Shown: positions 7,320 to 64,000, counted from the stretch's first letter. The stretch: 64,000 bases of DNA from a virus (IMGVR_UViG_3300050821_006345:68192-132191), one strand, 5' to 3'. The notes: a model not told the origin generated them from the sequence alone. Numbers and translations are program-made.

Positions 7320-7763
7320 ATGTCGGTAGGATGGCATTCCCCGACCAACTTCGAGACCGAGGACAAACTCGGCCCAATACACAACCCCGCCTTCGGGAAA
7401 CCGGAGTGGCGGCAGTCTGATGCGGTAAAAATCACCGCCCGATACAAGCTGGGTGCGAAGGTCGGAAGCAAGATTGTCATACGCGAAAGAGGACAGACCC
7501 CAATCCTATGAAATGGGGCGGTCAGGCGTAGCCAAAGCAAGAGTCCGCAAGATCGGCACACTAAACATTATCGGCCAGCAATCGCGGTCGCCAGCTAAAC
7601 GAACATCAGACACTCGTGATAAACCATTAAAACGGTGCGAGCAGGCTCTAACGCGGCGGATTGCGGCAGAAACCAGACCTGAAATGTCTCTGGCTAGTGG
7701 CCGCGTGTATTATGGCCGACGTAGGTGTGGTTAGGCAGTTAGACGCTTAACCGTTACCGATGT
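7320..7763 (+). ncRNA. Large structured ncRNA candidate (~445 nt)
   Basis: Terminal helix ATGTCGGTA..GATGG / CCGTT.ACCGATGT, many internal helices, a GAAA tetraloop, crossing long-range pairings, and no credible ORF. Confidence 0.6.
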
Positions 7764-7819
7764 TCTTCAGTTTCTGTTTGAAATGTTAAAGATTTAACGG
7801 CATACTCCGACCAGAATTT

Positions 7820-8248
7820 GTGGCAAAAATCATCAAAATCTACTTTGACGGAGGATGTTCTCCCAATCCCGGCCAAGCCTACGGGTCATTCCACATTTTG
7901 AACGGCGACCAAGAGCTTTTCTACCGCAGTCGAGTTCCTTTCGGTTTCGGAACGAATAACTTTGCCGAATTCACCGCCCTGACGATGGCGTTAAAAACAT
8001 TGGCAGACGACATGGCCGAACATGACGCCGATCCGAAAGAATACAACCTCTTTATTGAATCCGACTCCAGAATTGTCGTCAACCGCCTGACCAAGAAGAA
8101 CAAAATCCACAAGAAACCCAGAATGGTGGAAGCCAGCACCAGAATGTTTAATCTGGCCTGTGGCTGCTTGGATTACATGAAGCGGTTCAAATCGGTTGAA
8201 GTCGTCTGGAAGAAGCGGGATGCCAACGTCGAGCGTTTTGGCCACTAA
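7820..8248 (+). CDS. Ribonuclease HI-like protein
   Basis: IYFDGGCSPNPG, TNNFAEFTAL and ESDSRIVVN catalytic motifs. Confidence 0.9.
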   Translation: MAKIIKIYFDGGCSPNPGQAYGSFHILNGDQELFYRSRVPFGFGTNNFAEFTALTMALKTLADDMAEHDADPKEYNLFIESDSRIVVNRLTKKNKIHKKPRMVEASTRMFNLACGCLDYMKRFKSVEVVWKKRDANVERFGH

Positions 8249-9018
8249 TAAACGTCGGTTGCCCGGATAAACGCCGGATCTTGGTAGATGCTTCCGGTTT
8301 CTTTAGGCAATGTGACGTTGTGCAAATACGCCTTCAGCGAGTTAATCGCGGCCTCCGTCATCGCTTCCTCCGATGGCAGCACGGTCGGGTCGGGTTGTTG
8401 CGTCACCGATTCCACCAGCCAGTAAAACACGGTTCCTTCACTGTGCTGAATTTTACGTCCACGAGGCTCGGTTGGCTCGTATTCGCCCTTGTAAAATTTG
8501 CCTCCTCGTTTACGTCTTCTCGATGCCGATCCGCTTCGCGTCTCCGCAAATTCATGGTTCTGCCAGTGTGCGCCAGTAACGTCGTCTGAATCATCGTCAG
8601 AGGCTTTAAGTCCTACGACGCCGATTTTACCGGATTTCTGTCGGCCAAAAAACGGAACAAGATTTGCGAATTCGGTCGGTGAATGGCCGTAGGCTTCGGG
8701 CGTTGCTGGGATCGAGAGGTAGTGTGCGAAAACGGGTTTAATCTCTCCGCCCAAAAGTCTCTGACGCATTCCGGTCTGATTGATAACGACCGATGCCTCG
8801 TCCTCGCCATACTCCATCGTTATGCCATCCGCCGCCTTCTGGTAAAAATTCGATTTGAAAGCCTCGCCGAATGGATTGGTTCGGTCAAGGTTGAGATTCG
8901 ACAAATACGCGCTTAAGTAAGCATGGACGCCATCGGCTGCCGCTGCGGTTGCTTCAGAGCGGTCGTCGCCTAGAGAAAGAAGCGCGCCTAAATTCGGAAG
9001 GTCGATGGTGTATGGCAT
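8245..9018 (-). CDS. Virion morphogenesis/neck protein (Mu gpG-like)
   Basis: RQRLLGGEIKP...YLSIP and YWLVESVTQQPDPTVLP motifs; lies between adaptor and tail genes. Confidence 0.55.
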   Translation of the reverse strand: MPYTIDLPNLGALLSLGDDRSEATAAAADGVHAYLSAYLSNLNLDRTNPFGEAFKSNFYQKAADGITMEYGEDEASVVINQTGMRQRLLGGEIKPVFAHYLSIPATPEAYGHSPTEFANLVPFFGRQKSGKIGVVGLKASDDDSDDVTGAHWQNHEFAETRSGSASRRRKRGGKFYKGEYEPTEPRGRKIQHSEGTVFYWLVESVTQQPDPTVLPSEEAMTEAAINSLKAYLHNVTLPKETGSIYQDPAFIRATDVY

Positions 9019-53221: not shown

Positions 53222-54568
53222 TTAGGCCATTGAAATTTCTTCCGTCACAGGAATCCTGATAGATAGCTTGCGGCGATAGTATTGTCCGGCAATTGATCCA
53301 GCCTTGCCGCCAGCTGCGACGGTGACCGACCATCCTTCATGACGGTCGCTGCGCCATTCGTCGCCCTTGATAATCTGCTCTCCGTCCTCAAGCAGACGAT
53401 AGCCGTCTCCGGCCACTATTGCTGGCAATTCAGATTTAACTCTGCGCCGATAAATCGTGGTCGGATACGGAGGCTGGCCGACAATGTGGCCGGGAGAGAC
53501 TGTGATTGACCAGATGCCCCTGACTCCGAGCCACTGGTCTCCAGTTTGAACGGCATCGCCATCCTTTAATTGAACGTATCCTTCTCCAACGTCAACCTGC
53601 GACTCTGGTTTTGCTTCCGACTTTTCAATCAGCATCTTCTTGCGTCGGATTAACTGTGCTGCTCCGGCTGGATTGCCAAGATACTGGTCGTGGACTCGAC
53701 GCCAGCCATCTGGCGCTTTTACCTCATCCGAACCAATAAGAATCTCGGCTGGCAGAAGCCTGCGATACCCTTCACCAACGTCCTCGTCCGGCTCGGCCTC
53801 GGCAGCGGTGCAGGCCGGACCACATGGTGTCTCGCCCCCGTTGGATTCTTGCGACCAGAAGTGGAAGCAGTCGGGACAGAGAAAACTGCCAGACCCATCA
53901 GCCTCGGCGTTAAACCTCCCGCACGATGGACACTGGATGTCACCAGCGGCTGGCGTCTCGTCCTCAATGTCCCACTCTCGCTGTGCGCCGCTGTATTTCG
54001 TCGCTCCACCGTAAGGGCGATGGCTTGTGAAGTTCCAGTAGTTATTCGAGTATTCACAATCGCCAACCCTTGTGAACTGGCCGTAAGTTTTAACCGTTCC
54101 ATCTGGCCGCAGAACCACGAACCTGTTTCCGGTTGAAATATGGTTGAGGATGCCCTCTCCGCGCATAGAAACAATCCGCGCCAGAACCATCGAGTCGGAT
54201 GCGAACTCCGGATATTTCACTCCCGCAAGCTGCGCCATGTATTTCCAATCTTGGATTGTGCCGTTATGGAAGAACACCGGACAGTTGGTCACTCCGTCCA
54301 TGTCGGCGTTGTGCTTTCTTTTGACAACGAATGGATGGCACAGGGCGGGAATCACCTTGCCGACCGATGCAATGCGGAAATGGAAGATGTGCGGGAACGG
54401 CTTGTTGGCGACCAAGTCCTGCATCTGTTCTGCGGTGATTCCCTTCTTGAAATGGACAAATCCATTCTCCGCCCACGCCACGCCGCCGCCGTGAGGATTC
54501 TTGTCCTGACATTTATACAATGTAGGAAGGTCTGGGTCTTTAGTGGGAGCTACAACGATGACGCACAT
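53222..54568 (-). CDS. Class II glutamine amidotransferase with Zn ribbon and three C-terminal repeats
   Basis: N-terminal Cys2, NPHGGG, HFRIAS, HPF, HNG and SDS motifs; repeats G.GY..L..G..I..GD.W. Confidence 0.88.
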   Translation of the reverse strand: MCVIVVAPTKDPDLPTLYKCQDKNPHGGGVAWAENGFVHFKKGITAEQMQDLVANKPFPHIFHFRIASVGKVIPALCHPFVVKRKHNADMDGVTNCPVFFHNGTIQDWKYMAQLAGVKYPEFASDSMVLARIVSMRGEGILNHISTGNRFVVLRPDGTVKTYGQFTRVGDCEYSNNYWNFTSHRPYGGATKYSGAQREWDIEDETPAAGDIQCPSCGRFNAEADGSGSFLCPDCFHFWSQESNGGETPCGPACTAAEAEPDEDVGEGYRRLLPAEILIGSDEVKAPDGWRRVHDQYLGNPAGAAQLIRRKKMLIEKSEAKPESQVDVGEGYVQLKDGDAVQTGDQWLGVRGIWSITVSPGHIVGQPPYPTTIYRRRVKSELPAIVAGDGYRLLEDGEQIIKGDEWRSDRHEGWSVTVAAGGKAGSIAGQYYRRKLSIRIPVTEEISMA

Positions 54569-54930
54569 TTGATTTTATATTAAATTATTGCCCGCTGGCC
54601 GTTTTGAGTCAGGCCGAACATTGTTAATCCGTTTGCCGAGTTGACTGCACCGACAAGGCCAATTTGGCCGGCCTCTGAAATTGCGCTCATGATTTCCTCT
54701 TTCGTTAGGCCGGTTCGGGTCGCCAGACCGCCGACGCCGTGAACCTTGAACTGCTTGTTGTTCTTCATCTCAAGCAGGACAATCCGCGTCTCCCGATTGA
54801 GGCAGAAGTTGCGCGGACGGGCAAGGCCGCGATTGTCTCCGCCGCCTTCCGTATTATCCTTTGTTGTTCTCATGTTGTCGCTCATAACGTATTCCATTAA
54901 GCATGGTAAAACAATCCGCTCGTTGCAAGG

Positions 54931-55140
54931 CTAATTGACAGGACCGATAGAAAGTGATTTCGTGTTTCCTCCGTCGTTGAACTCCGCAAAGCTCAAACTC
55001 AAATGTAAATATGAGGCGTGGGGAGTAACTGTAACAGATTGTGGATTATCACTGGCGTCGCTTCCTTGCGGCCTGAATTTAATCTTAACCGAGACTTGAT
55101 CGGATTCAACTCCGACAATTTGAGTGTATGGCACATTCAT
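54931..55140 (-). CDS. Small hypothetical protein, paralogue of 39999..40211
   Basis: Clear pairwise similarity. Confidence 0.6.
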   Translation of the reverse strand: MNVPYTQIVGVESDQVSVKIKFRPQGSDASDNPQSVTVTPHASYLHLSLSFAEFNDGGNTKSLSIGPVN

Positions 55141-56282
55141 ATTTTATCTCCGTTCACAAATTTCTTTTTCAGCCGAATACCAAAGTTGGTGAAAACGTCA
55201 TAGGTCACCGAGTCCTTCAGCTTGGCCAGCTCATGGACACCGATGCGATCCGTTCCCTGACCGCCCATGATTGCCGCTTCGTCTCCAGTCTTGGCCTCTG
55301 GTATGCCGGTGACGTCCACCATCATTGAATCCATGGAGTTGCCACCGAGCGTCGGTGCTTTCTGGCCGTGAATTAAAACGTGGCCCTTGTTGCAAAGCCT
55401 CGGCATCCCGTCGCCGTAGCCCATCGGAAGCACAGCCACTCTCCGCTCTGACGTCGCCGTGTAATTCATTCCGTAACCCACGGTCTCGCCGCGTTTAACT
55501 TTCTGAATTGCGGCAATCTTGGCCTTGACGCTCATGACCTGACGGATGCCTTCAATCTTCCGGCAGCCAAAAGGAGTCACTCCTGTGTAAAGGATTCCAG
55601 AGCGCACCATATCGTATTGGGCGTGGGGAAGATTAAGATGGCCTCCGCTGTTGCAGGCCGAAACGATGCCGGGACTGATTCCTGCTGATTCCATCCCGCC
55701 GAGAACTGATTCAAACCGCTCCAGCTGAAGCATGGCGAACGTCTTGTCGGAAGCGTAAGACTTGGCGAAGTGGGTCATCGTGCCTTCAATCTGAATGTTG
55801 GCCATCAAAGCGACTTGAGAAATCAAAGGCATGGCCTCGTCCCACCGGACTCCGTATCGGCTCATGCCGGTTTGAATCTCAATGTGAACAGGAATCTGCC
55901 TTCCGATTTTCTCCGCAGATTGGTTTAATTTTGCGATGTTATTCAGGTCGCCGGAGCAGATGGTTATTCCATGCTCGGCGCAAAATTCAATTTCGGAAGG
56001 ATGCCGCTCGTAGAACAGAACAATCTTGCAGGCATCTGGCAGAAGTCCGCTGCTCCGCAGTTTCCACGCCTCGTCAACAGTTGAAACAGCAAGCCCCCAT
56101 GCTCCGGCTTGGAGTGCAAGCTGGCCAACCGTGACGGCATCGTGGCCGTAGGCGTCGTCTTTCAGCACGGCCAGATACTTTACCTTGGCCGGAATGTCGG
56201 CTCGGATTAGTTGAAGGTTCTTGCGAAGCTTGGCAACGTCAATCTCAACCCAAGCGGCACGGTCTGGAGGATTCACTGGCAT
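55137..56282 (-). CDS. alr: Alanine racemase
   Basis: AVLKDDAYGH (PLP lysine), TGMSRYG, THFA, NSGG, DMVRSG, VGYG, GYGDG and SMD motifs. Confidence 0.92.
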   Translation of the reverse strand: MPVNPPDRAAWVEIDVAKLRKNLQLIRADIPAKVKYLAVLKDDAYGHDAVTVGQLALQAGAWGLAVSTVDEAWKLRSSGLLPDACKIVLFYERHPSEIEFCAEHGITICSGDLNNIAKLNQSAEKIGRQIPVHIEIQTGMSRYGVRWDEAMPLISQVALMANIQIEGTMTHFAKSYASDKTFAMLQLERFESVLGGMESAGISPGIVSACNSGGHLNLPHAQYDMVRSGILYTGVTPFGCRKIEGIRQVMSVKAKIAAIQKVKRGETVGYGMNYTATSERRVAVLPMGYGDGMPRLCNKGHVLIHGQKAPTLGGNSMDSMMVDVTGIPEAKTGDEAAIMGGQGTDRIGVHELAKLKDSVTYDVFTNFGIRLKKKFVNGDKI

Positions 56283-56791
56283 ACTTCCTCCAGTAGATGG
56301 CGGGCTTCTCTGGCATCGCGGTAGTTATCGCCACCCGGATCAGGAACTGATTGGAAATCCTCCAGTTCTTCAATGTAGGCGGATGGCAGATTGTTTTGTT
56401 TTGCTCCGACAACGACAAGTTGCAGATACCAATCGTAAATCGGAAGCCCTCCGGCAGTCCGGTCGGAATTGTGAAAGGCGCAGACAACCACGCCAAGCTC
56501 CGGTGAATTGACGGACATCTCGAAAACCGAGTAGCCCTTTTCCATTTCAGAAAGCGCGGAAAACTCCGATTCCGGCATCTCGTAAATAACGCCCCAGACA
56601 CTGGATGCCTCGGCCACGACCAAATTTGCCTTGCCGCACTGCATTCCGTTCTTGCGGGTGGATATTTTGCCGAAGCAAATCTTCAGGCCGACGGCCTTGC
56701 CAGTGCCAATCTTCCTTGCACTTGGACATCTGGCCTGAATGCGCTCCTTGAGCAAATTCGATCCGTAGCTGAAATACTTAATCGCGTTCAT
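56273..56791 (-). CDS. Gamma-glutamylcyclotransferase (AIG2-like)
   Basis: YFSYGSNL, VWGVIY, E.GY and GA....LP..YI..L motifs. Confidence 0.88.
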   Translation of the reverse strand: MNAIKYFSYGSNLLKERIQARCPSARKIGTGKAVGLKICFGKISTRKNGMQCGKANLVVAEASSVWGVIYEMPESEFSALSEMEKGYSVFEMSVNSPELGVVVCAFHNSDRTAGGLPIYDWYLQLVVVGAKQNNLPSAYIEELEDFQSVPDPGGDNYRDAREARHLLEEVCQ

Positions 56792-57115
56792 GTAATTATT
56801 TTGAAGCCGCCGCGAGGCCCATGCCAATATACTTGTCAGCTTTTGGCTTCGTAAAATAAACAATCACGCCGCGTTTGGGAATGATTGGGAAATCCTCTGC
56901 CGAAAGCAGCCCACGAAGCAGGAATCTGTCTGTCACCAAACATTTTACCGGATTTTTTACATTGGCAGGAACCAAATCCTCTTCGCCAATTTTAGCCACG
57001 CTGTAACTTGATGTTTTATTCATATCGTTATTTTCTTTCCGCGTTTCGGATTCTTCACCCTCGACGCTGGACAGAGGATGCTTTATTGGCCAAAGCAAGT
57101 CAACCGAAATAATCT

Positions 57116-57775
57116 CTATTGCATCAGCTCCAGAAGCTCCGGAGGCAGCTCGCTCTTGCGGGCATGGCTCTGCGCGGTGAAGGCGACGTGGATTGGGCTG
57201 TTGGTCAGGTAGTCCTCGACGCACTTGACGATGCGGGTCACTCCGTCCACGGCAATGTTGACGTCCTTGAACGTCGGCAGCATCCGGCACTCCGCCGTCT
57301 TGTGAAGACCCCAGCAGAAGTTCCATTGCGTCCATCGTTCACCAGTTCCCTTGGACGTGGCTTTGATCTGCATCTCCGGCTTCCATTCTTTTTTGCAGAA
57401 CTTGTTTTCTCCGGCCAGCCGCGAGAAGAAATGCTTGTTGGTCGTCCGGCGTTTGCCCCATGCGGCCATCTCCTCAAGGAAGAATTCTTGGAAACGACGG
57501 TCGATGATTCGAGCGTAGTTAATCGGATTCTTCAGGCTGACATGGACGTGGAGGCCGCAGGTTGAGTTGGTGTGCGGCGGATAGACCCGCCTCATCCACT
57601 GGTCGAGTTCAATCAGATTCTCGGTCGGATGCGAAACATATTCTCTAGATGTTATGCCGGATTCGCTGAAGCTCACCGATCCGTCGGAGTGAGCCGAACC
57701 GGGTTCTGGTGGAGGAAGGTTTCCGCTGTTCCAGCCGCCCTCAATTTCAACGCCAACTTTGTGAATGTGGTTCAT
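57116..57775 (-). CDS. Amidoligase (COOH-NH2 ligase, glutamine synthetase-like fold)
   Basis: GVEIEG, DGSV, EYVS, TCGLHVHVS and TAECR motifs. Confidence 0.85.
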   Translation of the reverse strand: MNHIHKVGVEIEGGWNSGNLPPPEPGSAHSDGSVSFSESGITSREYVSHPTENLIELDQWMRRVYPPHTNSTCGLHVHVSLKNPINYARIIDRRFQEFFLEEMAAWGKRRTTNKHFFSRLAGENKFCKKEWKPEMQIKATSKGTGERWTQWNFCWGLHKTAECRMLPTFKDVNIAVDGVTRIVKCVEDYLTNSPIHVAFTAQSHARKSELPPELLELMQ

Positions 57776-58491
57776 ATTAAGCTTCAAGTGGAATTACCGC
57801 GTAAATTACAGCCTTGTCCGCATGACAAAGATTGCCTCTTGCCGTCACCGCTTGGCAATACTTTTCTTTTACCGCCTCAAGAACAATCTGAGAAAGCGGC
57901 TCTTCCGTATCGAATCCTTGGTTGCCATCGCAAATTTGGCCAGCCTCGGTTATCACCTTAATTGCGACCATGTATCGTTTCATGCTTCGTGATACCAGCA
58001 GGTGGTGATTACCTTGACCCGTGATTTCTCGACGAAATGGTTGTGCAGGTCGGTCGCAAACGACTGAAGACGGTCGGCAAACTCTTTCAGCACAGTCACA
58101 CCAGCCGGAGTCATGGCCGAAGGCGGAATGACGAACCTGACCCCGTCCTTGATGTCCTTGGCCTGAAGGAACGACGCATTTATGTTCGGCCCGTTGAAAA
58201 CAATGGCCTCTGGCGAATTTAGAATGACTCCGTGGGACTTTCCATTGTCTGCCAGCTTCTTGGCAATCGTGTTGTTGAAGCTGCGGCATTCGATACTGCA
58301 AAGCGTGAAGTTTGGATTCCTTGGTGAGCAGATTGGCGACCAGTCAATGTCCGACTGGATGTTCACCACCGTTCCCGATTCATTTCTTTCAACGCGAAGG
58401 ACTATGATTTTGGCTGATTGGATTGGCATTGGTCGTATCGTTGTTTAATTTGCGTGGACAGCTTGCGAAATAGTTCTGGCGAAGTCAACGG

Positions 58492-59097
58492 TCATCTGTG
58501 AAGAAAAAGCAGGTGGTCTGGATGACTTGAAAACAGGAAGCTGATGGGCGCAAGCGGAAGTGGTGCTTTTGGCTGGCGGATAAGTTTATGGCCGGATTCT
58601 TCGAGCGTCTTATTTCCGCGAGAATGATTTATGCTTTTCGTTACAAGGGCAAGGTTAGTCCAATCGTCGCTGCCTCCCCTTGATTTAGGGAGGCAATGTT
58701 CGATAGACCAATCGGACGGGCCGATTTTTTCTCCTGTTATTTGGCACGTGGAATTGTCCCTCGCCGCGAGGCCTTTTAAGTTCTTCTTCGGGACGCGCCT
58801 TCTCGTGGCATTATATTTTCCGAGGATTATGATGGTTGGACAGCGGAAATCAAAGTGCAGTGAATGAAGAACATCGTCGTCGGGTCTGGTTGGCCGAAAC
58901 TCCATTCCTGTTCTAATCGGCAGTGTAATCCACTGATCCCAGCGGCACGGATAAAACGCATTGACGTAGTCCTGAACGTCCAGAGCGGTCGCGACCCCGG
59001 TCATTATCATCGGAAGGCAGTGTTTTACTGATTGAATTTCATGGGCCTGCCACGAACGGTTCAAAACCAAAACATTCAGGTCTAATGCTGATTTCAT
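58492..59097 (-). CDS. HNH endonuclease
   Basis: VLVLNRSWQ, ARDNSTCQITG and IEH.LPKSRGG..DWTNL....IN motifs. Confidence 0.85.
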   Translation of the reverse strand: MKSALDLNVLVLNRSWQAHEIQSVKHCLPMIMTGVATALDVQDYVNAFYPCRWDQWITLPIRTGMEFRPTRPDDDVLHSLHFDFRCPTIIILGKYNATRRRVPKKNLKGLAARDNSTCQITGEKIGPSDWSIEHCLPKSRGGSDDWTNLALVTKSINHSRGNKTLEESGHKLIRQPKAPLPLAPISFLFSSHPDHLLFLHR

Positions 59098-59166
59098 TGA
59101 AGGAACATGGTGGTAAAACTAACGAAGAACTGCAAGAAGTAACCTCGATGAAGACTGAAAGGAAGG

Positions 59167-59243
59167 TGGCGATGCCGATTGGAGTTGCACCAACATGAAT
59201 CCGTTTAGGAAACGGAGCCGGGTCTATTTCCGGTGACGGCATC
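59167..59243 (-). tRNA. tRNA-Arg(CCT)
   Basis: GATGCCG/CGGCATC-GCCA acceptor; TCCGT-TTCCTAA-ACGGA anticodon arm; T-loop TGCAACT. Confidence 0.8.
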
Positions 59244-59247
59244 AAAT

Positions 59248-59335
59248 TGGCACCCGCTTCTGGATTTGCACCAGAGTGTGGATTGCTCCATGCTGATCCA
59301 AAGTCAGCTGCCTTCGACTACTCGGCCAAGCGGGA
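59248..59335 (-). tRNA. tRNA-Gln(TTG) with long variable arm
   Basis: GCTGA-CTTTGGA-TCAGC anticodon arm; V-arm TGGA-GCAA-TCCA; G73-CCA. Confidence 0.8.
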
Positions 59336-59546
59336 ATTAAATCTTTTGAACGTCCGGAGCGTCAATGTTCGGATAGCCGTTAGCCTTCGCCCAAGCAGTT
59401 ACTGCTTCGTCGCCATCCCATGTGTATTCATCGGCGTTCTCCCCGGCCTCGCGGTCAAGCGTGGCGATTATGTCGCCGGACTCGACATCGTAAAATTGAG
59501 CGATGTTGCCACGGTCGTCTACGTCGTATGGTTCTGTCATAAATTT

Positions 59547-59622
59547 TGGCGTTGCTGGCCGGGCTTCCACCGGCTAGGAACTGTTCGAGAAACAGTGCGC
59601 TCGTGTCTTTGCATTCAGCAAC
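59547..59622 (-). tRNA. tRNA-Glu(CTC), non-canonical elbow
   Basis: GTTGCTG/CAGCAAC-GCCA acceptor; ACTGT-TTCTCGA-ACAGT anticodon arm; T-loop TGGAAGC. Confidence 0.7.
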
Positions 59623-59628
59623 AATAAA

Positions 59629-59702
59629 TGGTCGTCGATCCGGTGTTTTCATCCGGAGCCTTCGCCTTATAAAGACGCCGCTCTCACTTGAGCTAATCGA
59701 CG
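59629..59702 (-). tRNA. tRNA-Ile(TAT)
   Basis: CGTCGAT/ATCGACG-ACCA acceptor; GCTC/GAGC D stem; loop TTTATAA; T-loop TGAAAAC. Confidence 0.7.
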
Positions 59703-60524
59703 GTAAATTAAAACTCCGGACATTTTCTCAGGACGCCGGAGAACTGCTAACAACCGGCTGGTCGCCGGAAATCTTCTTTTCCAAATAACGGATGCGTGAT
59801 TGAATGAGTGGTTTGGCCAGTTCGCCATCCGGCGTAATTTTCTCAAGCTCTTTCAATCCGGCCAGTTCAGCGTGGTCGCTCACTCCCTGCGGTTCTGGCT
59901 TCTGCTCTGGTTGTTTGGCAGTTTCCACGAAAAACCGTTTCAGCACCGCCAGTTCCTCCGGTTTCAGATTCACGTCCACCATCTGATGCTCGCCTTTCTC
60001 GTTCAAATTATCTGGCATGAACAGCTGAAGATGGTCTGTCTTCAGGTCGATGCGGTGAAAGAACATTCCAAGCATCTCACAGGCTTGGACGAGGATCGGC
60101 CCGTCAAAAACGCCCCAATGCTCCGGCACAAAGTCCTTCTGGCACTTGCTGCACCAAAGATGGTCTCTGTATTCAGAGTATTCGCAGTCGTTGTTGCCGC
60201 AGGCGCATCCGGGAATGCCGTAGATGGACGGCTTCTGGCAATACATCCATTCGCGCTTTTCTAATTTTGTTTCTTCGTTTGGCATATTAGGCTGTTTGGT
60301 TTCTGGCCAATCGCAATAGTCTGCGTTCGTAAAATTTGTTCACAAACTCCCAAACGCCGTCCTTAAAAAGAGCCAGTGCATTATAGTCGTTTGCTTCATC
60401 GGCCACTATTACAAATTCTTTCGGATGATTGCCGATGTGTTCAAGCATTGCTCGGCAGCCAAACAAACCTGACTGTTCGCGGCCTTTTTCATCTATCCAT
60501 ACTGCAATCGCATTCATAAATTGA

Positions 60525-60648
60525 TGGTCGTGCCGTGCGTCACTCGGCCATTCTTACTAACTGCCTACGGTTTTCAGAACTTCCCGATTGCAATCAGGTC
60601 GCCCACCGCGATTTAGCTTGCTCCGTCCGCGCCGGAGTCTGCCGACCA
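60525..60648 (-). ncRNA. Rod-like structured RNA candidate downstream of tmRNA
   Basis: TGGTCG/CGACCA ends, nested helices, apical CCTGATT/AATCGGG. Confidence 0.45.
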
Positions 60649-60650
60649 AA

Positions 60651-61051
60651 TGGAGGAGATGACGAGAGTCGAACTCGTGTCGAATGTTAATACTGCGCCA
60701 CTTCTATATGCTTTTCAGATTTTGTTCATCCCGACTTGATCCGCATCAAGTTGTCCGGGCAGTCGGCGTTAACCAGCCGTTGGCCGACCCTACTTTTGCT
60801 AGAGTCCACACCGCCCTGCTGGTTTCGTCGCTTCGCATAAGCAGGAGTCCTGCGGGCGACGGACTGGCACTTTAGGCCAATGCTGCTTCACCGCACGTGG
60901 CGGGTGTTCCGAAGAACTCCGCAACGCGGGCGAAGGCGCTATGAATCATCGTAGCATTTGTGTTTTGATGCGAATGATTAACGAGGCCAACGCATCGTCC
61001 TCGGCATATGGCGAACACAATGGTTATCATCCTCGATACCTTTGCATCCCC
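60651..61051 (-). ncRNA. ssrA: tmRNA
   Basis: 5' GGGGATG..AGG.ATCGA; 3' GACACGAGTTCGACTCTCGTCATCTCCTCCA with G3:U70; pk1 (CCGAGG/CCTCG, GATGCG/CGCATC); tag ORF 60955-60872 ending EAALA. Confidence 0.9.
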
Positions 61052-61531
61052 GTAAATTCTTAAATCACCTTCAGCGGCTTGTTTTCCATGTGGCCGAAAC
61101 ATCCGAACACATCCTGCTGCGGGATTGAAAACGAAAACACCTCGTCGCTGTCCGTGTGAATGGCGGCATTGACCATGTTCGGCATCGCCTTTAGCTTGGC
61201 TTTGGCCGATGCAAAATCAGGAGCATCAACGGCGACTCCGTGGACACTCATCGTTACAGTGCCGTTAAGTATGGATTCTGTAAGCAGGAACATCATGGCG
61301 TTGATCCTAAATAATTCCGCTTCAAAAAGCGAGCGGATTCTTTGGCCGATTTCACCACTTGATGCGGAGTCAGGTCGTCAAACCGTCCACCGCAGTCGTC
61401 CTTGTCAGACTTCAGATTAAACATGGTCGGTGTGGAGCTTGGCGCATTGCACTGGCGCACAAACTCGGCCTTGTCCTTCTTGGACAATTTCACCCAACCC
61501 TTCGGATATTTTGCTTTGCTCATAATTCAAA

Positions 61532-61620
61532 TGGCGGAAGCCGCAAGTCCTGCCCTCGATGCCGTTTCCGGCACAATCGGTGTAGCACACCGCTCCAGTC
61601 CTCGACATGGTTCAGCTTCC
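61532..61620 (-). tRNA. 8/4 allo-tRNA-like tRNA-Ser(GCT)
   Basis: 8-bp acceptor GGAAGCTG/CGGCTTCC, 4-bp T stem, extended D stem, V-arm GTGCCG-GAAA-CGGCAT, G73-CCA. Confidence 0.8.
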
Positions 61621-61654
61621 ATTAAATTCATTTTGATAAATTGGCCGCGCGAAG

Positions 61655-62023
61655 TCAACACGGAAGAACGATCTTCAGGCCGGCCTTGATTGCCACCGAA
61701 ACCATGTTTTTAGAACCGGGTGATTCACCGTTCCAGAAACAAACCAACGCTCCAGCATATTCGGATATTTCAGCGGCGTAGGCTGCCATCGCCTCGTTTC
61801 GCATCGGGCCAGCGGCCTTGCCATACCGATCCCAATCCGGTAAAAATCGCTTCACCGGAATGCCGCGCTGCCTCGCCCATTCCTCGCCGATTGCGTCCGA
61901 TCCTTTTGCGCCGCCGGAAATCACTTCCACTATCTTGAAGTCCAGCGCATCGAGGGCGTCAAAGGCGAACTGTGTGTCGACGAACGAGCGTGACCCGGCG
62001 ATTATGCACTTGTATTCTTTCAT
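61655..62023 (-). CDS. SLOG/YspA (DUF2493) family protein
   Basis: IIAGSR, VISGGAKGSD, AGPMRN..M and GS.NM motifs. Confidence 0.85.
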   Translation of the reverse strand: MKEYKCIIAGSRSFVDTQFAFDALDALDFKIVEVISGGAKGSDAIGEEWARQRGIPVKRFLPDWDRYGKAAGPMRNEAMAAYAAEISEYAGALVCFWNGESPGSKNMVSVAIKAGLKIVLPC

Positions 62024-62027
62024 AGAT

Positions 62028-62117
62028 TGGTGGCATCGGTGGTGCTTGCAACCACAACAAGGCTTTCGCCTACAACTTGGTTTGAGCAAGTTAGGTATCC
62101 ATTCCCGTCACGATGCC
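62028..62117 (-). tRNA. tRNA-Leu(CAA)
   Basis: ACTTG-CTCAAAC-CAAGT anticodon arm; long V-arm; A73-CCA. Confidence 0.85.
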
Positions 62118-62123
62118 GAAAAG

Positions 62124-62206
62124 TGGCCTATAAAAGATTTGCACTTTTAAGGACAAGCCGTTTTAAGTGGCTCGCTTCTGCTGGTTTCGCTTTCGTCCAA
62201 TAGGCC
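62124..62206 (-). tRNA. tRNA-Leu(TAA), atypical architecture, no encoded CCA
   Basis: GGCCTAT/ATAGGCC-A acceptor; loop CTTAAAA; extra GGAC/GTCC helix. Confidence 0.65.
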
Positions 62207-62211
62207 GTAAA

Positions 62212-62297
62212 TGGTGGTCGTGGAAAGACTTGCACTTTCAATAGGATTGCTCCTGAACGCCCCTCAAGCGTTTGCGTCTACATTGCGCCACACGACC
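62212..62297 (-). tRNA. tRNA-Leu(GAG)
   Basis: AACGC-TTGAGGG-GCGTT anticodon arm; V-arm AGGA-GCAA-TCCT; A73-CCA. Confidence 0.85.
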
Positions 62298-62298
62298 G

Positions 62299-62380
62299 TC
62301 GCTTCGGCAGAACTCGCATCTGCAATCCTTTCGGAATATGCTCCTGAAGCATACGCGCTTACTGATTTCGCCACGAAGCG
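62299..62380 (-). tRNA. tRNA-Leu(CAG), no encoded CCA
   Basis: TATGC-TTCAGGA-GCATA anticodon arm; V-arm TCC-GAAA-GGA; A73. Confidence 0.85.
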
Positions 62381-62386
62381 GAAAAT

Positions 62387-62462
62387 TGGTAGCGACGGAG
62401 GCGGTTGCAGCCCCATACACGATGCCCTAAACATCGTTGCGTTTCTATTAGCATACGTCGCC
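62387..62462 (-). tRNA. tRNA-Leu(TAG) with short variable loop
   Basis: CGATG-TTTAGGG-CATCG anticodon arm; 5-nt V loop; A73-CCA. Confidence 0.75.
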
Positions 62463-62517
62463 GACAAAATCGGTAAAATTATTCCTCACCACTCTCTTTC
62501 CTGTGGCACTTTGTTCA

Positions 62518-62820
62518 ATGGCCGTTTCCCGCGTCATCTTCAAAAGACCAAAAGTCGTGTATAAGCACATCCGGGAGATGGGAGTCGTTGGCCTCGCCTA
62601 CAACGACCGGCAGGACGACAAATACGGAACGGTGGAGGTTGATCCCCGTCAGTCCGATGCCGAATTCATAAAAACAACGGTGCATGAGCTGCTCCATTGG
62701 CACTTCCCAGACTTAACCGAGCGGCAGGTCGTTAAAATGGAGAAGGCGTTCGGCAAAAAAGTGTGGAACGCGGTTAGCCGGTTAAGGCGGAAGTGGAATA
62801 AGGCGAGCCTGCCAAGATAA
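62518..62820 (+). CDS. Small HExxH metallopeptidase-like protein
   Basis: VEVDPRQ...TTVHELLH motif. Confidence 0.65.
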   Translation: MAVSRVIFKRPKVVYKHIREMGVVGLAYNDRQDDKYGTVEVDPRQSDAEFIKTTVHELLHWHFPDLTERQVVKMEKAFGKKVWNAVSRLRRKWNKASLPR

Positions 62821-62875
62821 TTGCAATCTTCCCACCGATTTACGAAATCGGATTGTGCGCGTGCGGCAGGCAAAA

Positions 62876-62962
62876 TGGTGCAACCGAGGAGACTCGCACT
62901 CCTGATGGACTTTCGTCGTCGGCTTAAGAGGCCGTTCCGTTCGCTGCTCCGGGCACGATTGC
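62876..62962 (-). tRNA. tRNA-Lys(CTT) with long variable arm
   Basis: CGGC-CTCTTAA-GCCG anticodon arm; V-arm GAC-GAAA-GTC; A73-CCA. Confidence 0.8.
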
Positions 62963-62969
62963 AAAAGGA

Positions 62970-63057
62970 TGGTTCTTGCGGTGGGACTCGCACCCACGGT
63001 GGCATATTATGCGTCGGATTAAAAGTCCGGTCGAATCGCTACTCTCGGCACGCAAGA
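62970..63057 (-). tRNA. tRNA-Lys(TTT) with long variable arm
   Basis: CGGA-CTTTTAA-TCCG anticodon arm; V-arm GCAT-AAT-ATGC; A73-CCA. Confidence 0.8.
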
Positions 63058-63064
63058 ATGAAAT

Positions 63065-63134
63065 TGGTCGCTGCTATGGAAATCGCATCCATCTTGACGG
63101 CGTATGAAACCATCGTGTTCCTAGAACCGCAGCG
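63065..63134 (-). tRNA. tRNA with CAT anticodon (Met or Ile2), shortened D arm
   Basis: CGCTGC/GCAGCG-ACCA acceptor; GTTC-TAG-GAAC D arm; loop TTCATAC; T-loop TGCGATT. Confidence 0.65.
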
Positions 63135-63512
63135 GAAAGATTTGTGGGCGCGATAGTTTCGCCACAGCTCATTTAAGATAACCGCCGGACTTTCACCGGA
63201 ACTCCCACGAAATTAAGCGCCGACGTGATGCTATTTCACTACATCGCAAATGGGCTTTATGTTTCCAATGCCTCACGCGCACTTATGATGGAGTGCGAAG
63301 GATGCAAACGATGGCCGGTTATGCTCCGGCGTCTGCGGCTAAATCTATGGAGCCTGCACAGGGACGTCCGCCCTGCTCTCATCCTTACCGAGGACGCGCG
63401 TCGGTATCTACGCTTTACAGGCAAAGTGGTGGTGCGGAAACTGGGAGTTTCGCCCAGACAGACTGCTTGGAAGGCAGTCATGCTCAATTGACATCATTTC
63501 CGCATTAAAATA

Positions 63513-63586
63513 TGGAGGCCAACTCAGGACTTCCACCTGATACGCTTCGTTTGCTGCGAAGCCGCTCGTGTCTTTGCTTGTCGGCC
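63513..63586 (-). tRNA. tRNA-Cys(GCA), non-canonical elbow and A33
   Basis: GGCCGAC/GTTGGCC-TCCA acceptor (U73); CTTCG-CAGCAAA-CGAAG anticodon arm; T-loop TGGAAGT. Confidence 0.75.
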
Positions 63587-63679
63587 AAAAGTGTTCCGAT
63601 ATTTCCCGCCTCGGATTTACGCGAATTATTCATGCCTTTCGGCAACTCGCGAGGGCGCAGTCTCCATTGCTGGAGAAGT

Positions 63680-63754
63680 TGGGGCGAACGACGCTGCTTG
63701 CAAGCGCATAGGCGACCTTCACGGGGTCGGGCATTACGTTATGCTACGTTCGCC
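63680..63754 (-). tRNA. tRNA-His(GTG) with G-1:C73 and C33
   Basis: GGCGAACG/CGTTCGCC-CCA acceptor; CGACC-CCGTGAA-GGTCG anticodon arm; T-loop TGCAAGC. Confidence 0.8.
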
Positions 63755-64000
63755 ATCAAAATTGAAACGCCGCTCCCGTGACACCACGGGCATATTATTT
63801 GTGCGACAGAAGCAATTTTCTGCCAGCGGCTAAAATTCTAAACTATGGCCTTCCGCATCTGGTCAAACAGCGAGTGGCCGACATCCGGTGGCACTGGCTC
63901 TCTGCTCTCTGTTGGTCTGGCAGTTAAAAATGGGTTGGTCGGGGTCACCGTCCACGGACTCCACCGAGCGATTATCGCTTCAGGAAAGCATTTGTCCGGT

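What the first reader, a model, noticed from the sequence alone, without database searches (positions are those of the whole stretch)
59167..63754. An entire phage tRNA set with a rewired elbow: no TTC loop, all G55, and compensatory 19:56 swaps
Seen: all 15 folded tRNAs have G at position 55 (TGC in 11, TGG in 2, TGA in 1, GGC in 1), while the tmRNA keeps TTCGA. Most replace D-loop GG by AG. Glu and Cys have D-loop AC with T-loop G56 (C19:G56), and Ile has D-loop GT with A56 (U19:A56). This covariation argues for selection rather than decay. Known: G18:Psi55 and G19:C56 are near-universal and are read by TruB, RNase P, T-boxes and the ribosome; some toxins cut the T-loop. Inference: a parallel, nuclease-resistant tRNA pool that lets the phage evade host tRNA-destroying defence, or spares its own tRNAs while host tRNAs are destroyed. 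Standard scanners may miss or call many of these pseudo.
Basis: partly seen in the sequence, partly recalled or inferred. Interest (0 to 1): 0.88.

Follow-up and report, generated by a model that had tools for sequence, protein, structure and literature searches.

The report
Phage tRNA set with rewired elbow
This uncultured soil phage carries about 18 transfer-RNA genes that all replace tRNA's near-universal U55 (and mostly its partner G18) with a matched G55/A18 corner, a working-looking second tRNA design that lacks the site read by T-loop enzymes and by known T-loop-cutting nucleases.

Summary
On the minus strand of 59167-63754 I find 16 clear cloverleaf tRNAs plus two odd ones. All 18 have G at T-loop position 55, while the tmRNA between them keeps UUCGA.

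- **They look like working tRNAs.** Seven score above Rfam's tRNA threshold, 13 of the 16 encode CCA, and the His, Cys, Gln and Glu identity marks are present. Metatranscriptome contigs cover two tRNA blocks and the tmRNA.
- **The likely hosts are canonical.** In two Verrucomicrobiota genomes, 42 of 42 tRNAs examined have UUC and GG.
- **The covariation holds widely.** Among 366 unique viral tRNAs, G55 goes with D-loop AG and U55 with GG (158/13 against 3/137). Positions 19:56 also covary as Watson-Crick pairs.
- **The new elbow matches a known motif.** It is the YGNRA T-loop with an intercalating adenine, as in riboswitches.
- **Whole-set conversion recurs.** At least nine other viral arrays are 77-100% G55.

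The advantage is inferred, not shown. The most likely one is escape from T-loop-directed nucleases such as the published Cash Schlafen.

This scan has reported the same elbow in at least 12 other phage genomes. I found no paper describing it.

The parts
63680..63754 (-). tRNA-His (GUG), with G-1:C73 and encoded CCA. T-loop UGCAAGC (G55). D-loop is 6 nt with no GG.
   Evidence: The minimum-energy fold is a cloverleaf.
63513..63586 (-). tRNA-Cys (GCA), U73, CCA. T-loop UGGAAGU (G55, G56). D-loop contains AC (A18, C19).
63430..63503 (-). tRNA-Gly (UCC), CCA. T-loop CGAAACU (C54, G55, A56). D-loop has UU and no GG.
   Evidence: Rfam 45.1 bits.
63348..63422 (-). tRNA-Thr (GGU) candidate, CCA. T-loop CGGACGU (G55, G56). 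C at position 33.
   Evidence: cloverleaf minimum-energy fold.
63065..63134 (-). tRNA with CAU anticodon (Met, or Ile2-type), CCA. T-loop UGCGAUU. Very small D-arm.
62970..63057 (-). tRNA-Lys (UUU) with a long variable arm, CCA. T-loop UGCGAGU. D-loop AG.
   Evidence: Rfam 36.6 bits.
62876..62962 (-). tRNA-Lys (CUU) with a long variable arm, CCA. T-loop UGCGAGU. D-loop AG.
   Evidence: ARAGORN default; Rfam 35.8 bits.
62806..62871 (-). tRNA-Thr (CGU) candidate with no encoded CCA. T-loop UGCAAUU. Reduced D-arm.
62387..62462 (-). tRNA-Leu (UAG) with a short variable region, CCA. T-loop UGCAACC. D-loop AG.
62299..62380 (-). tRNA-Leu (CAG) with no encoded CCA. T-loop UGCGAGU. D-loop AG.
   Evidence: ARAGORN; Rfam 47.6 bits. 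RNA contigs reach into it.
62212..62297 (-). tRNA-Leu (GAG), CCA. T-loop UGCAAGU.
   Evidence: ARAGORN; Rfam 40.8 bits. Covered by RNA contigs.
62124..62206 (-). Atypical Leu (UAA)-like tRNA with extra bases before the D region. T-loop UGCAAAU.
   Evidence: Read. The fold is not a clean cloverleaf. Membership is uncertain.
62028..62117 (-). tRNA-Leu (CAA), CCA. T-loop UGCAAGC. The D-loop keeps GG, the only one of the 16 that does.
   Evidence: (-ps90).
61532..61620 (-). Ser (GCU)-like RNA with an 8-bp acceptor stem and a 4-bp T stem. T-loop GGCAGGA. Ends in CCA.
   Evidence: Read. The fold is not a cloverleaf. Membership is uncertain.
59629..59702 (-). tRNA-Ile (UAU), CCA. T-loop UGAAAAC (G55, A56). 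D-loop GU (U19 opposite A56).
   Evidence: Rfam 41.4 bits.
59547..59622 (-). tRNA-Glu (CUC), G73, CCA. T-loop UGGAAGC (G55, G56). D-loop AC. Homologous Glu tRNAs in two other viral arrays have AG with C56.
59248..59335 (-). tRNA-Gln (UUG) on a long-variable-arm scaffold, G73, CCA. T-loop UGCAAAU. D-loop AG.
   Evidence: ARAGORN; Rfam 46.6 bits. 81% identical over 69 nt to the tRNA-Tyr of Microcystis phage MaMV-DC.
59167..59243 (-). tRNA-Arg (CCU), CCA. T-loop UGCAACU. D-loop AG.
   Evidence: Fold z-score -3.7.
60651..61051 (-). tmRNA, used here as the comparator. It keeps the canonical T-loop GUUCGAC.
   Evidence: Rfam RF00023, 79.9 bits. RNA contigs of depth 12-70 cover it in four metatranscriptome runs.

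Best explanation
**What it is.** These are working phage tRNA genes whose elbow has been rebuilt.
- The tRNA-specific T-loop (U54-U55-C56-R57-A58, with G18 slotting in between 57 and 58) is replaced by the generic YGNRA T-loop.
- The YGNRA loop has G at its second position and takes an adenine from the partner loop, here A18.
- The outer 19:56 pair, which gives the elbow its flat face, is kept. It is usually G19:C56. In Cys, Glu and Ile it is a swapped Watson-Crick pair instead.
- The L-shape should therefore be preserved.

**What changes.** The U54-U55 dinucleotide and G18 are gone.
- TruB cannot make pseudouridine 55.
- Gm18 cannot be made.
- A nuclease that needs U54-U55 in the T-loop has no site.

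**Why the whole set changed (inferred).** The most likely reason is pressure from a trans-acting reader of the T-loop. The best candidate is a host T-loop nuclease of the Cash/Schlafen or CdiA-E479 kind. The result would be a phage-private tRNA pool that keeps translating while host tRNAs are cut.

**Shown versus inferred.**
- Shown: the sequence pattern, its covariation, its recurrence, and the canonical tRNAs of the likely host lineage.
- Inferred: the three-dimensional geometry, aminoacylation, and the selective agent.
For: **They look like real tRNAs**
- All 18 of 18 have G55, while the neighbouring tmRNA keeps UUCGA.
- Seven score 35.8-47.6 bits against RF00005, whose threshold is 29.
- 15 of 18 fold to a cloverleaf or near-cloverleaf as the minimum-energy structure.
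- 13 of 16 encode CCA.
- Identity marks are present: His has G-1:C73, Cys has U73, Gln and Glu have G73.
- Contigs from four soil metatranscriptome runs, at least 99% identical, cover the Leu block, the Thr/Lys block and the tmRNA.

**The likely host lineage is canonical**
- All 8 bacterial genomes that encode a relative of this phage's portal protein are Verrucomicrobiota.
- In two of them, 42 of 42 tRNAs examined are UUC with GG.
- TruB is present in 4 of 5 such genomes.

**Covariation**
- Among 366 unique viral tRNAs with C56: G55 goes with AG in 158, GG in 13 (12 of these read AGG) and other in 8.
- U55 goes with GG in 137, AG in 3 and other in 3.
- Within arrays that hold both kinds, the four counts are 103, 8, 1 and 91.
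- A56 goes with R-U in 11 of 14. G56 goes with R-C in 7 and R-U in 6 of 14, and never with R-G. U56 goes with R-A in 8 of 10.
- Matched pairs on one scaffold: the window's Glu (AC with G56) against Glu in L475 and G027 (AG with C56).
- A second matched pair: Met in G001 (A18/G55) against Met in Streptomyces phage Percastrophe (G18/U55).

**Structural match**
- 16 of 18 window T-loops fit YGNRA.
- A preprint reports this class (UGNRA 88.7%, CGNRA 10.9%) in FMN and cobalamin riboswitches, with an almost invariant intercalating adenine (10.1101/2022.12.26.521914, passages).

**Whole-set conversion**
- Of 22 arrays with at least 5 tRNAs, 13 are 0-36% G55 and 9 are 77-100%. None falls in between.
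- Stem identity within arrays is no higher in G55-rich arrays (0.375-0.50) than in U55 arrays (0.40-0.46). Recent duplication therefore does not explain the pattern.

**A selective agent exists in principle**
- CbCash cuts 5' of U55 at a UUC motif, and single U54 or U55 changes abolish cleavage. The authors call the fate of phage tRNAs an open question (PMC13462974, passages).
- CdiA-CT E479 cuts the T-loop between T and pseudouridine (PMC9086364, passages).
- Schlafen AlbA_2 domains occur in 3 of 5 genomes of the likely host lineage.
- The phage encodes RtcB, an RNA repair ligase.
Against: - There is no direct evidence of processing, charging or nuclease resistance.
- The RNA evidence comes from assembled contigs. 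These cannot show mature ends, and they span several genes.
- The host assignment is indirect. It rests on portal relatives at 39-45% identity, and only two host-lineage genomes were sampled for tRNAs.
- Schlafen domains are common in bacteria (5 of 14 control genomes). None was tied to T-loop cutting here.
- The window's own tmRNA keeps U54-U55. A pure T-loop sequence reader would still cut it.
- Arrays with intermediate or low G55 fractions exist (5 of 14, 3 of 20, 5 of 23 parsed). The state is therefore not strictly all-or-none.
- The arrays were reached through G55 T-arm patterns and through an HNH neighbour gene. The bimodal picture is not a population estimate.
- The Fisher statistic ignores relatedness among the sequences.
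- G55 tRNAs show a weak tendency to be each other's nearest same-anticodon relatives (101 against 56). Part of the pattern is therefore inherited rather than independently evolved.
Confidence: 0.45

Rival explanations
1. **Self-folding tRNAs that need no modification.** The YGNRA/A18 elbow is intrinsically stable. It does not need TruB, TrmA or TrmH, either as modifiers or as folding chaperones. A phage that floods the cell with tRNA would then get functional molecules at once. Nuclease escape would be a side effect.
For: - G55 and A18 remove the substrates of TruB and TrmH. This follows directly from the sequence.
- m5U54 and pseudouridine 55 occur in every E. coli tRNA. TrmA and TruB act as chaperones that raise aminoacylation (PMC11214086, abstract and opening text).
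- YGNRA T-loops work unmodified in riboswitches.
- No phage-encoded partner specific to G55 arrays was found.
Against: - It does not obviously predict near-complete conversion of a whole set, nor the 54:58 variants.
- Phages with large canonical arrays exist: 19 of 19 parsed in Percastrophe, 20 in Tunturi_5, 24 in Rctr197k.
- The likely host lineage has TruB.
Confidence: 0.22
2. **Neutral, compensated drift.** G18:U55 and A18:G55 are two roughly equal solutions. Phage tRNAs are under relaxed constraint. Whole-array states spread by descent, gene conversion or en-bloc transfer of arrays, with no specific advantage.
For: - A weak lineage signal exists. The nearest same-anticodon relative of a G55 tRNA is G55 in 101 cases, U55 in 56, and tied in 12.
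- The Glu tRNA has the same 7-nt acceptor strand in the window and in G027.
- One long-arm scaffold is reused for Tyr, Gln, Asn and His in different phages.
- Mixed arrays exist.
Against: - G55 is absent from all 42 tRNAs examined in the likely host lineage, and reviews call U55 universal. The two states are therefore not equivalent in cells.
- No array of the 22 sampled falls between 36% and 77% G55.
- Within-array similarity is not raised in G55-rich arrays.
- On the tree of the neighbouring HNH gene, the G55-rich state is scattered (6 changes).
Confidence: 0.18
3. **The phage destroys host tRNAs itself.** It would use a T-loop-directed nuclease of its own, and the G55 set would be its immune replacement pool.
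For: - The logic is the same as for the main explanation.
- This phage carries RtcB.
- An HNH nuclease gene abuts the array, and full-length relatives occur in the four other G55-rich phages compared.
Against: - The HNH family is very large: 3422 proteins at E of 1e-10 or better.
- It also neighbours U55 arrays, for example L462 with 1 of 19 G55.
- On its tree the G55-rich label is no more clustered than in shuffles (126-139 of 500 shuffles are as low).
- No Schlafen domain occurs in any of five G55-rich phages.
- RtcB found no relative in the other four.
Confidence: 0.07
4. **Not translational tRNAs.** They would be decoys, processing signals or decaying pseudogenes.
For: - Several members are strongly deviant: a mini D-arm in the CAU tRNA, non-U at position 33 in Cys, His and Thr-GGU, and the Leu-UAA-like and Ser-like RNAs.
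- Scanner scores are low.
Against: - The anticodons cover 12 amino acids, including all six Leu codons.
- CCA ends, identity marks and compensatory changes are present.
- The same elbow occurs in arrays that score 50-67 bits and that ARAGORN finds readily, for example 35 genes in the G034 array.
Confidence: 0.05
5. **Avoidance of restriction sites.** The canonical T-loop DNA carries TCGA or TTCGAA, and the rewiring would remove those sites.
For: TTCGAA is nearly absent from this phage (2 sites, observed/expected 0.09) and from G034 (1 site, 0.02).
Against: - TTCGAA is not depleted in three other G55-rich phages (0.66, 0.67, 1.08).
- TCGA itself is not depleted in G034 (1.02).
- The sites could be removed by changing the variable positions 57 or 59, without touching U55 or G18.
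Confidence: 0.02

Closest known systems
Canonical bacterial and phage elongator tRNA (Rfam RF00005), elbow G18-pseudouridine 55, G19-C56, T54-A58
   Same: - Cloverleaf fold, 7-nt anticodon and T-loops, and a 5-bp T stem closed by G53:C61.
- U54-A58 is kept in most.
- The 19:56 Watson-Crick pair is kept.
- CCA ends and identity marks are present.
- The genes are arranged in a phage tRNA array.
   Different: - Position 55 is G in 18 of 18.
- Position 18 is A in about 7 of 16.
- The TruB and TrmH sites are absent.
- Rfam scores are 36-48 bits, against 58-76 bits for tRNAs of the likely host lineage.
YGNRA T-loops of FMN and cobalamin riboswitches (preprint 10.1101/2022.12.26.521914; passages seen)
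   Same: - The five-base loop is U/C-G-N-R-A, followed by two flipped-out bases.
- An adenine from the partner loop slots between positions 4 and 5.
- 16 of 18 window T-loops fit this pattern.
- Arrays elsewhere also show GGCAG and CGCRA variants.
   Different: - Here the motif sits inside a tRNA and pairs with a D-loop rather than a riboswitch receptor.
- The geometry is inferred from sequence only.
tRNA-Tyr of Microcystis phages MaMV-DC / Ma-LMM01 type (cultured)
   Same: - It has the same long-arm scaffold, D-arm and UGCAAAU T-loop as the window's tRNA-Gln (81% identity over 69 nt).
- 58 of the 61 IMG/VR matches to that D-arm are this tRNA. Every one that reaches the T-loop has G55; one match is cut off before it.
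   Different: - It is a single tRNA in its phage, not a whole set.
- Its anticodon is GUA.
Phage tRNAs that escape anticodon nucleases (recalled: T5 and mycobacteriophage work; Azam et al. 2024 seen only as a reference entry)
   Same: Phage-encoded tRNAs differ from host tRNAs at the site a defence nuclease reads.
   Different: - Those changes lie in the anticodon loop and affect single isoacceptors.
- Here the change lies in the elbow and affects the whole set.
- Resistance is untested here.
Mitochondrial tRNAs with non-canonical elbows (recalled)
   Same: They lack G18, G19 and the T-pseudouridine-C sequence yet still work in translation.
   Different: Mitochondrial forms mostly lose the D/T-loop contact. 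These phage tRNAs keep a matched contact with strict covariation.

Membership tests
tRNA (Rfam RF00005) | Cloverleaf with a 7-bp acceptor stem, a 5-bp anticodon stem with a 7-nt loop, and a 5-bp T stem with a 7-nt loop | tested here: met
   16 meet it in my scan. 15 of 18 fold as a cloverleaf or near-cloverleaf at minimum energy. The Leu-UAA-like and Ser-like RNAs do not fit cleanly.
tRNA (Rfam RF00005) | Score at or above the family's gathering threshold (29 bits) | tested here: inconclusive
   7 of 18 reach 35.8-47.6 bits in the region-limited search. Only 2 are reported on the whole window at gathering settings.
tRNA (Rfam RF00005) | T-loop U54-U55-C56-R57-A58 | tested here: not met
   0 of 18 have U55, and 5 of the 16 also lack C56. 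U54 and A58 are kept in most.
tRNA (Rfam RF00005) | G18-G19 in the D-loop | tested here: not met
   1 of 16 has GG (Leu-CAA). 6-7 have AG, 2 have AC, 1 has GU, and the rest are irregular.
tRNA (Rfam RF00005) | Processing, aminoacylation and use on the ribosome | not testable with these tools
   Only assembled RNA contigs that cover some of the genes are available.
YGNRA-class T-loop with intercalating adenine | Loop sequence U/C-G-N-R-A followed by two further loop bases | tested here: met
   16 of 18 fit: UGCAA 8, UGCGA 4, UGGAA 2, UGAAA 1, CGAAA 1. The exceptions are CGGAC and GGCAG.
YGNRA-class T-loop with intercalating adenine | Adenine supplied by the partner loop | tested here: inconclusive
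   An A at the position of 18 is clear in 6-7 of 16 in the window. Across viral arrays it is seen in 158 of 179 G55/C56 tRNAs. The three-dimensional placement cannot be tested.
tmRNA (Rfam RF00023), comparator | Full-length match above the gathering threshold, with a tRNA-like domain | tested here: met
   79.9 bits against a threshold of 47. The T-loop is the canonical UUCGA.

The most novel reading that the evidence does not exclude
tRNA has a second, modification-free elbow design (A18:G55 on a YGNRA T-loop). Phages adopt it for whole tRNA sets, producing a private translation pool that host immunity aimed at the T-pseudouridine-C loop (Cash-type Schlafens and similar nucleases) cannot cut. 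This would be an arms race fought at the most conserved nucleotides of tRNA, recurring in many unrelated phages.
Probability: 0.4. Interest if true: 0.9.

Novelty: new variant of a known kind. Interest (0 to 1): 0.8.

Why it matters
- **It challenges a textbook universal.** U55 (as pseudouridine) and G18 are treated as universal in tRNA (reviews PMC7912444 and PMC4810234, passages). A natural, recurrent and strictly compensated alternative shows which parts of the elbow are structurally required and which are there for enzymes.
- **It makes an open question testable.** The 2026 Cash paper leaves open whether phage tRNAs escape T-loop-cutting immunity. This window supplies natural G55/A18 substrates and obvious revertants for that test.
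- **It affects annotation.** Default scanners found 4 of the 18 genes here.
- **It may be useful.** tRNAs that host T-loop enzymes cannot read could serve as scaffolds for engineering.

Tried and rejected
**Searches for close relatives of this phage**
- A 15-nt D-arm word shared by the window's Cys and Glu gave 58 IMG/VR matches. None is a tRNA; all are chance matches.
- The 185-aa ORF inside the array has no relative in IMG/VR.
- Portal relatives (20 contigs, 40-48% identity) carry no arrays. Only 1 tRNA match was found in 19 records. Conservation within this phage's own lineage could therefore not be tested.

**HNH gene as a G55-specific partner: rejected**
- The window ORF at 58492-59097 was the only ORF of this genome with a match in all four G55-rich phages compared and in neither control.
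- The family is very large.
- Many loci that carry it have no tRNAs within 10 kb, or have U55 arrays.
- The G55-rich label is not clustered on its tree (75 proteins collapsed to 47 unique rows, each trimmed to its last 235 residues).

**Other hypotheses and checks that gave nothing**
- Restriction-site avoidance is rejected.
- No phage-encoded Schlafen domain was found.
- No CCA-adding enzyme was found in this phage.
- 'The host lacks TruB' does not apply here: TruB is present in 4 of 5 host-lineage genomes.

**Cultured phages with a G55-rich array: none seen**
- BLAST of this array, of part of the G001 locus (L151) and of the G034 array found none.
- Tunturi_5 and Rctr197k are all UUC.
- The L471 array matched 508 records. 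I read only the listing and did not inspect their T-loops.

**RNA runs**
- No contig of the four metatranscriptome runs lay on 59100-60500 or on 63100-63800. This is no evidence of silence.

**Not tested**
- Supplementary files of the papers were not seen. They may hold the Cash mutant data and the T-loop tables.

Full report
**What is there.**
The window is the last 64 kb of a 132-kb IMG/VR virus record, estimated 78% complete. All the RNA genes discussed here lie on the minus strand between 63754 and 59167.
- A relaxed cloverleaf scan finds 16 tRNAs.
- Direct reading adds a Leu(UAA)-like and a Ser(GCU)-like RNA.
- Every one of the 18 has G as the second T-loop base: UGC in 12, UGG in 2, UGA, CGA, CGG and GGC in 1 each.
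- The tmRNA in their midst (Rfam 79.9 bits) keeps GUUCGAC.
- As controls, the opposite strand and the rest of the genome give only scattered weak hits without this pattern.
- ARAGORN at default settings sees 4 of them. Rfam at gathering settings on the whole window sees 2.

**Are they tRNAs?**
- Seven score 35.8-47.6 bits against RF00005 when the region is searched alone.
- 15 of 18 fold to a cloverleaf or near-cloverleaf at minimum energy, with z-scores from -0.04 to -3.7.
- 13 of 16 encode CCA.
- Identity marks fit. His has G-1:C73, Cys has U73, Gln and Glu have G73, and Leu, Lys, Met and Ile have A73 (the identity rules themselves are recalled).
- Contigs from four soil metatranscriptome runs, at least 99% identical, cover the tmRNA at depth 12-70. 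At depth 2-4 they cover the Leu block (62060-62350) and the Thr/Lys block (62766-63066).
- These contigs show presence in RNA libraries. They do not show mature ends or charging.

**Host comparison.**
- All 8 matches to the portal protein in the bacterial genome collection are Verrucomicrobiota MAGs, at 39-45% identity.
- In one of these genomes I examined 32 of its 43 tRNAs, and in another 10 of its 40. All 42 have UUC and GG. They score 58-76 bits against RF00005.
- TruB is present in 4 of 5 such genomes.
- The host assignment is indirect. Within its limits, the refuting condition 'the host shares G55' is not met.

**Wider occurrence and covariation.**
- The D-arm of the window's tRNA-Gln occurs exactly in 61 IMG/VR contigs. 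Of these, 58 are the tRNA-Tyr of Ma-LMM01/MaMV-DC-like Microcystis phages. Two others are Asn and His tRNAs on the same long-arm scaffold. Every match that reaches the T-loop has G55, and one is cut off before it.
- In G001, 5 of 23 parsed tRNAs have G55, and all 5 have AG. The 18 with U55 all have GG.
- A scan for the G55 version of a common T-arm returned more than 113 places. About 18 are tRNAs of eight specificities, and nearly all have AG.
- Its G55-G56 version returned tRNAs with AC in the D-loop.
- I pooled 366 unique parsed viral tRNAs. With C56, G55 goes with AG in 158, GG in 13 and other in 8. U55 goes with GG in 137, AG in 3 and other in 3 (Fisher 3e-68, uncorrected for relatedness).
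- Of the 13 G55 tRNAs classed as GG, 12 read AGG, which is A18-G19-G20.
- Positions 19:56 covary as Watson-Crick pairs. A56 goes with R-U in 11 of 14. G56 goes with R-C in 7 and R-U in 6 of 14, and never with R-G. U56 goes with R-A in 8 of 10. C56 goes with R-G in 317 of 328.
- The window's tRNA-Glu (AC with G56) has homologues in L475 and G027 that read AG with C56. The G027 homologue has the same acceptor strand. This is a direct compensatory swap.

**Structural reading.**
- Reviews describe U55/pseudouridine 55 as universal and G18 as its partner (PMC7912444, PMC4810234; passages).
- A preprint on T-loops reports that riboswitch T-loops are YGNRA (UGNRA 88.7%, CGNRA 10.9%). It also reports that the base slotting between loop positions 4 and 5 is almost always adenine, and that tRNA's UUCRA loop is the exception.
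- The phage tRNAs have therefore moved from the tRNA-specific class to the general class while keeping the outer 19:56 pair.
- Among G55 tRNAs the 54:58 pair is U-A in 134, C-A in 20, G-G in 20 and A-U in 14. This again matches T-loop variants named in that preprint.

**Whole sets.**
- Of 22 arrays with at least 5 parsed tRNAs, 13 are 0-36% G55 and 9 are 77-100% (for example 28 of 29 in a complete 275-kb phage, and 21 of 21 in L475). None lies in between. The window is 16 of 16.
- The sample is biased by how I reached the arrays.
- Stem identity within arrays is the same in G55-rich and U55 arrays. The nearest-relative test shows only a weak lineage signal. Recent duplication therefore does not explain the whole-set state.

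**Search for a partner.**
- Only one ORF of this genome has relatives in all four other G55-rich phages and in neither control. It is the HNH gene that abuts the array.
- That family is very large, also neighbours U55 arrays, and shows no clustering of the G55 state on its tree. I reject it as a specific partner.
- No Schlafen domain occurs in five G55-rich phages.
- RtcB is present here but not in the other four.
- Restriction avoidance fails as an explanation.

**Mechanism.**
- Published nucleases cut exactly this site. CbCash, a type III CRISPR-associated Schlafen, cuts 5' of U55 at UUC and is blocked by single U54 or U55 changes. Its authors leave the fate of phage tRNAs open (PMC13462974, passages).
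- CdiA-CT E479 cuts between T and pseudouridine in the T-loop (PMC9086364, passages).
- Schlafen domains occur in 3 of 5 host-lineage genomes.
- I therefore favour escape from T-loop-directed attack (0.45). Modification-independent folding (0.22) and neutral compensated drift (0.18) come next.

**Prior work.**
- Nine literature searches found no description of A18/G55 tRNAs.
- This scan's own earlier notes report the same elbow in at least 12 other phage genomes. One of them led me to look for the Cash paper.

Noticed in passing
window 58492-59097 (-): A 201-aa HNH_4 (IscB/Cas9-like HNH) protein directly abuts the tRNA array. Full-length relatives sit in or near the tRNA arrays of many unrelated phages, both G55-rich and canonical. 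It may be a homing endonuclease of tRNA arrays or a factor linked to them.
   Followed up: yes
IMG/VR loci L227-L304: About 40 tmRNA-like 3' ends (alanine-type acceptor ending in CCA) carry a UGC T-loop. Some may be host ssrA remnants at prophage ends. A family of roughly 70-nt RNAs looks like a tmRNA tRNA-like domain with no message part (L227, L232, L247, L258, L259, L261, L282, L285, L292, L298).
   Followed up: no
window 62970-63057, 62876-62962, 59248-59335; loci L236, L275, L004, L035: Lys and Gln tRNAs carry long, GNRA-capped variable arms, while Leu(UAG) has a short one. The same long-arm scaffold serves Tyr, Asn, His and Lys in other phages.
   Followed up: partly
G000:C1 about 7550-8776 (-), outside the window: The phage encodes an RtcB RNA ligase (PF01139, 164 bits). 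No CCA-adding enzyme was found.
   Followed up: partly
whole genome G000: TTCGAA occurs only twice (observed/expected 0.09) and GATC is at 0.40. A 275-kb G55-rich phage (G034) has a single TTCGAA.
   Followed up: partly
window 53222-57787 (-): A gene cluster lies just upstream of the array. It comprises a glutamine amidotransferase-like protein (weak match), alanine racemase (186 and 127 bits), an AIG2-like cyclotransferase and a weak amidoligase match.
   Followed up: no
window 63140-63347 and 63590-63679 (-): Non-coding stretches between tRNAs hold hairpins, including a GCAA-capped stem. They are not assigned to any RNA family.
   Followed up: no
arrays L475, L477, L478, L380, L469: T-loops reading GGCAG (G54...G58) and AGCRU (A54...U58) recur together with G55. 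These are further covarying versions of the 54:58 pair.
   Followed up: partly
window 60663-61007: The phage tmRNA is the best-covered part of the stretch in four soil metatranscriptome runs (contig depth 12-70).
   Followed up: partly
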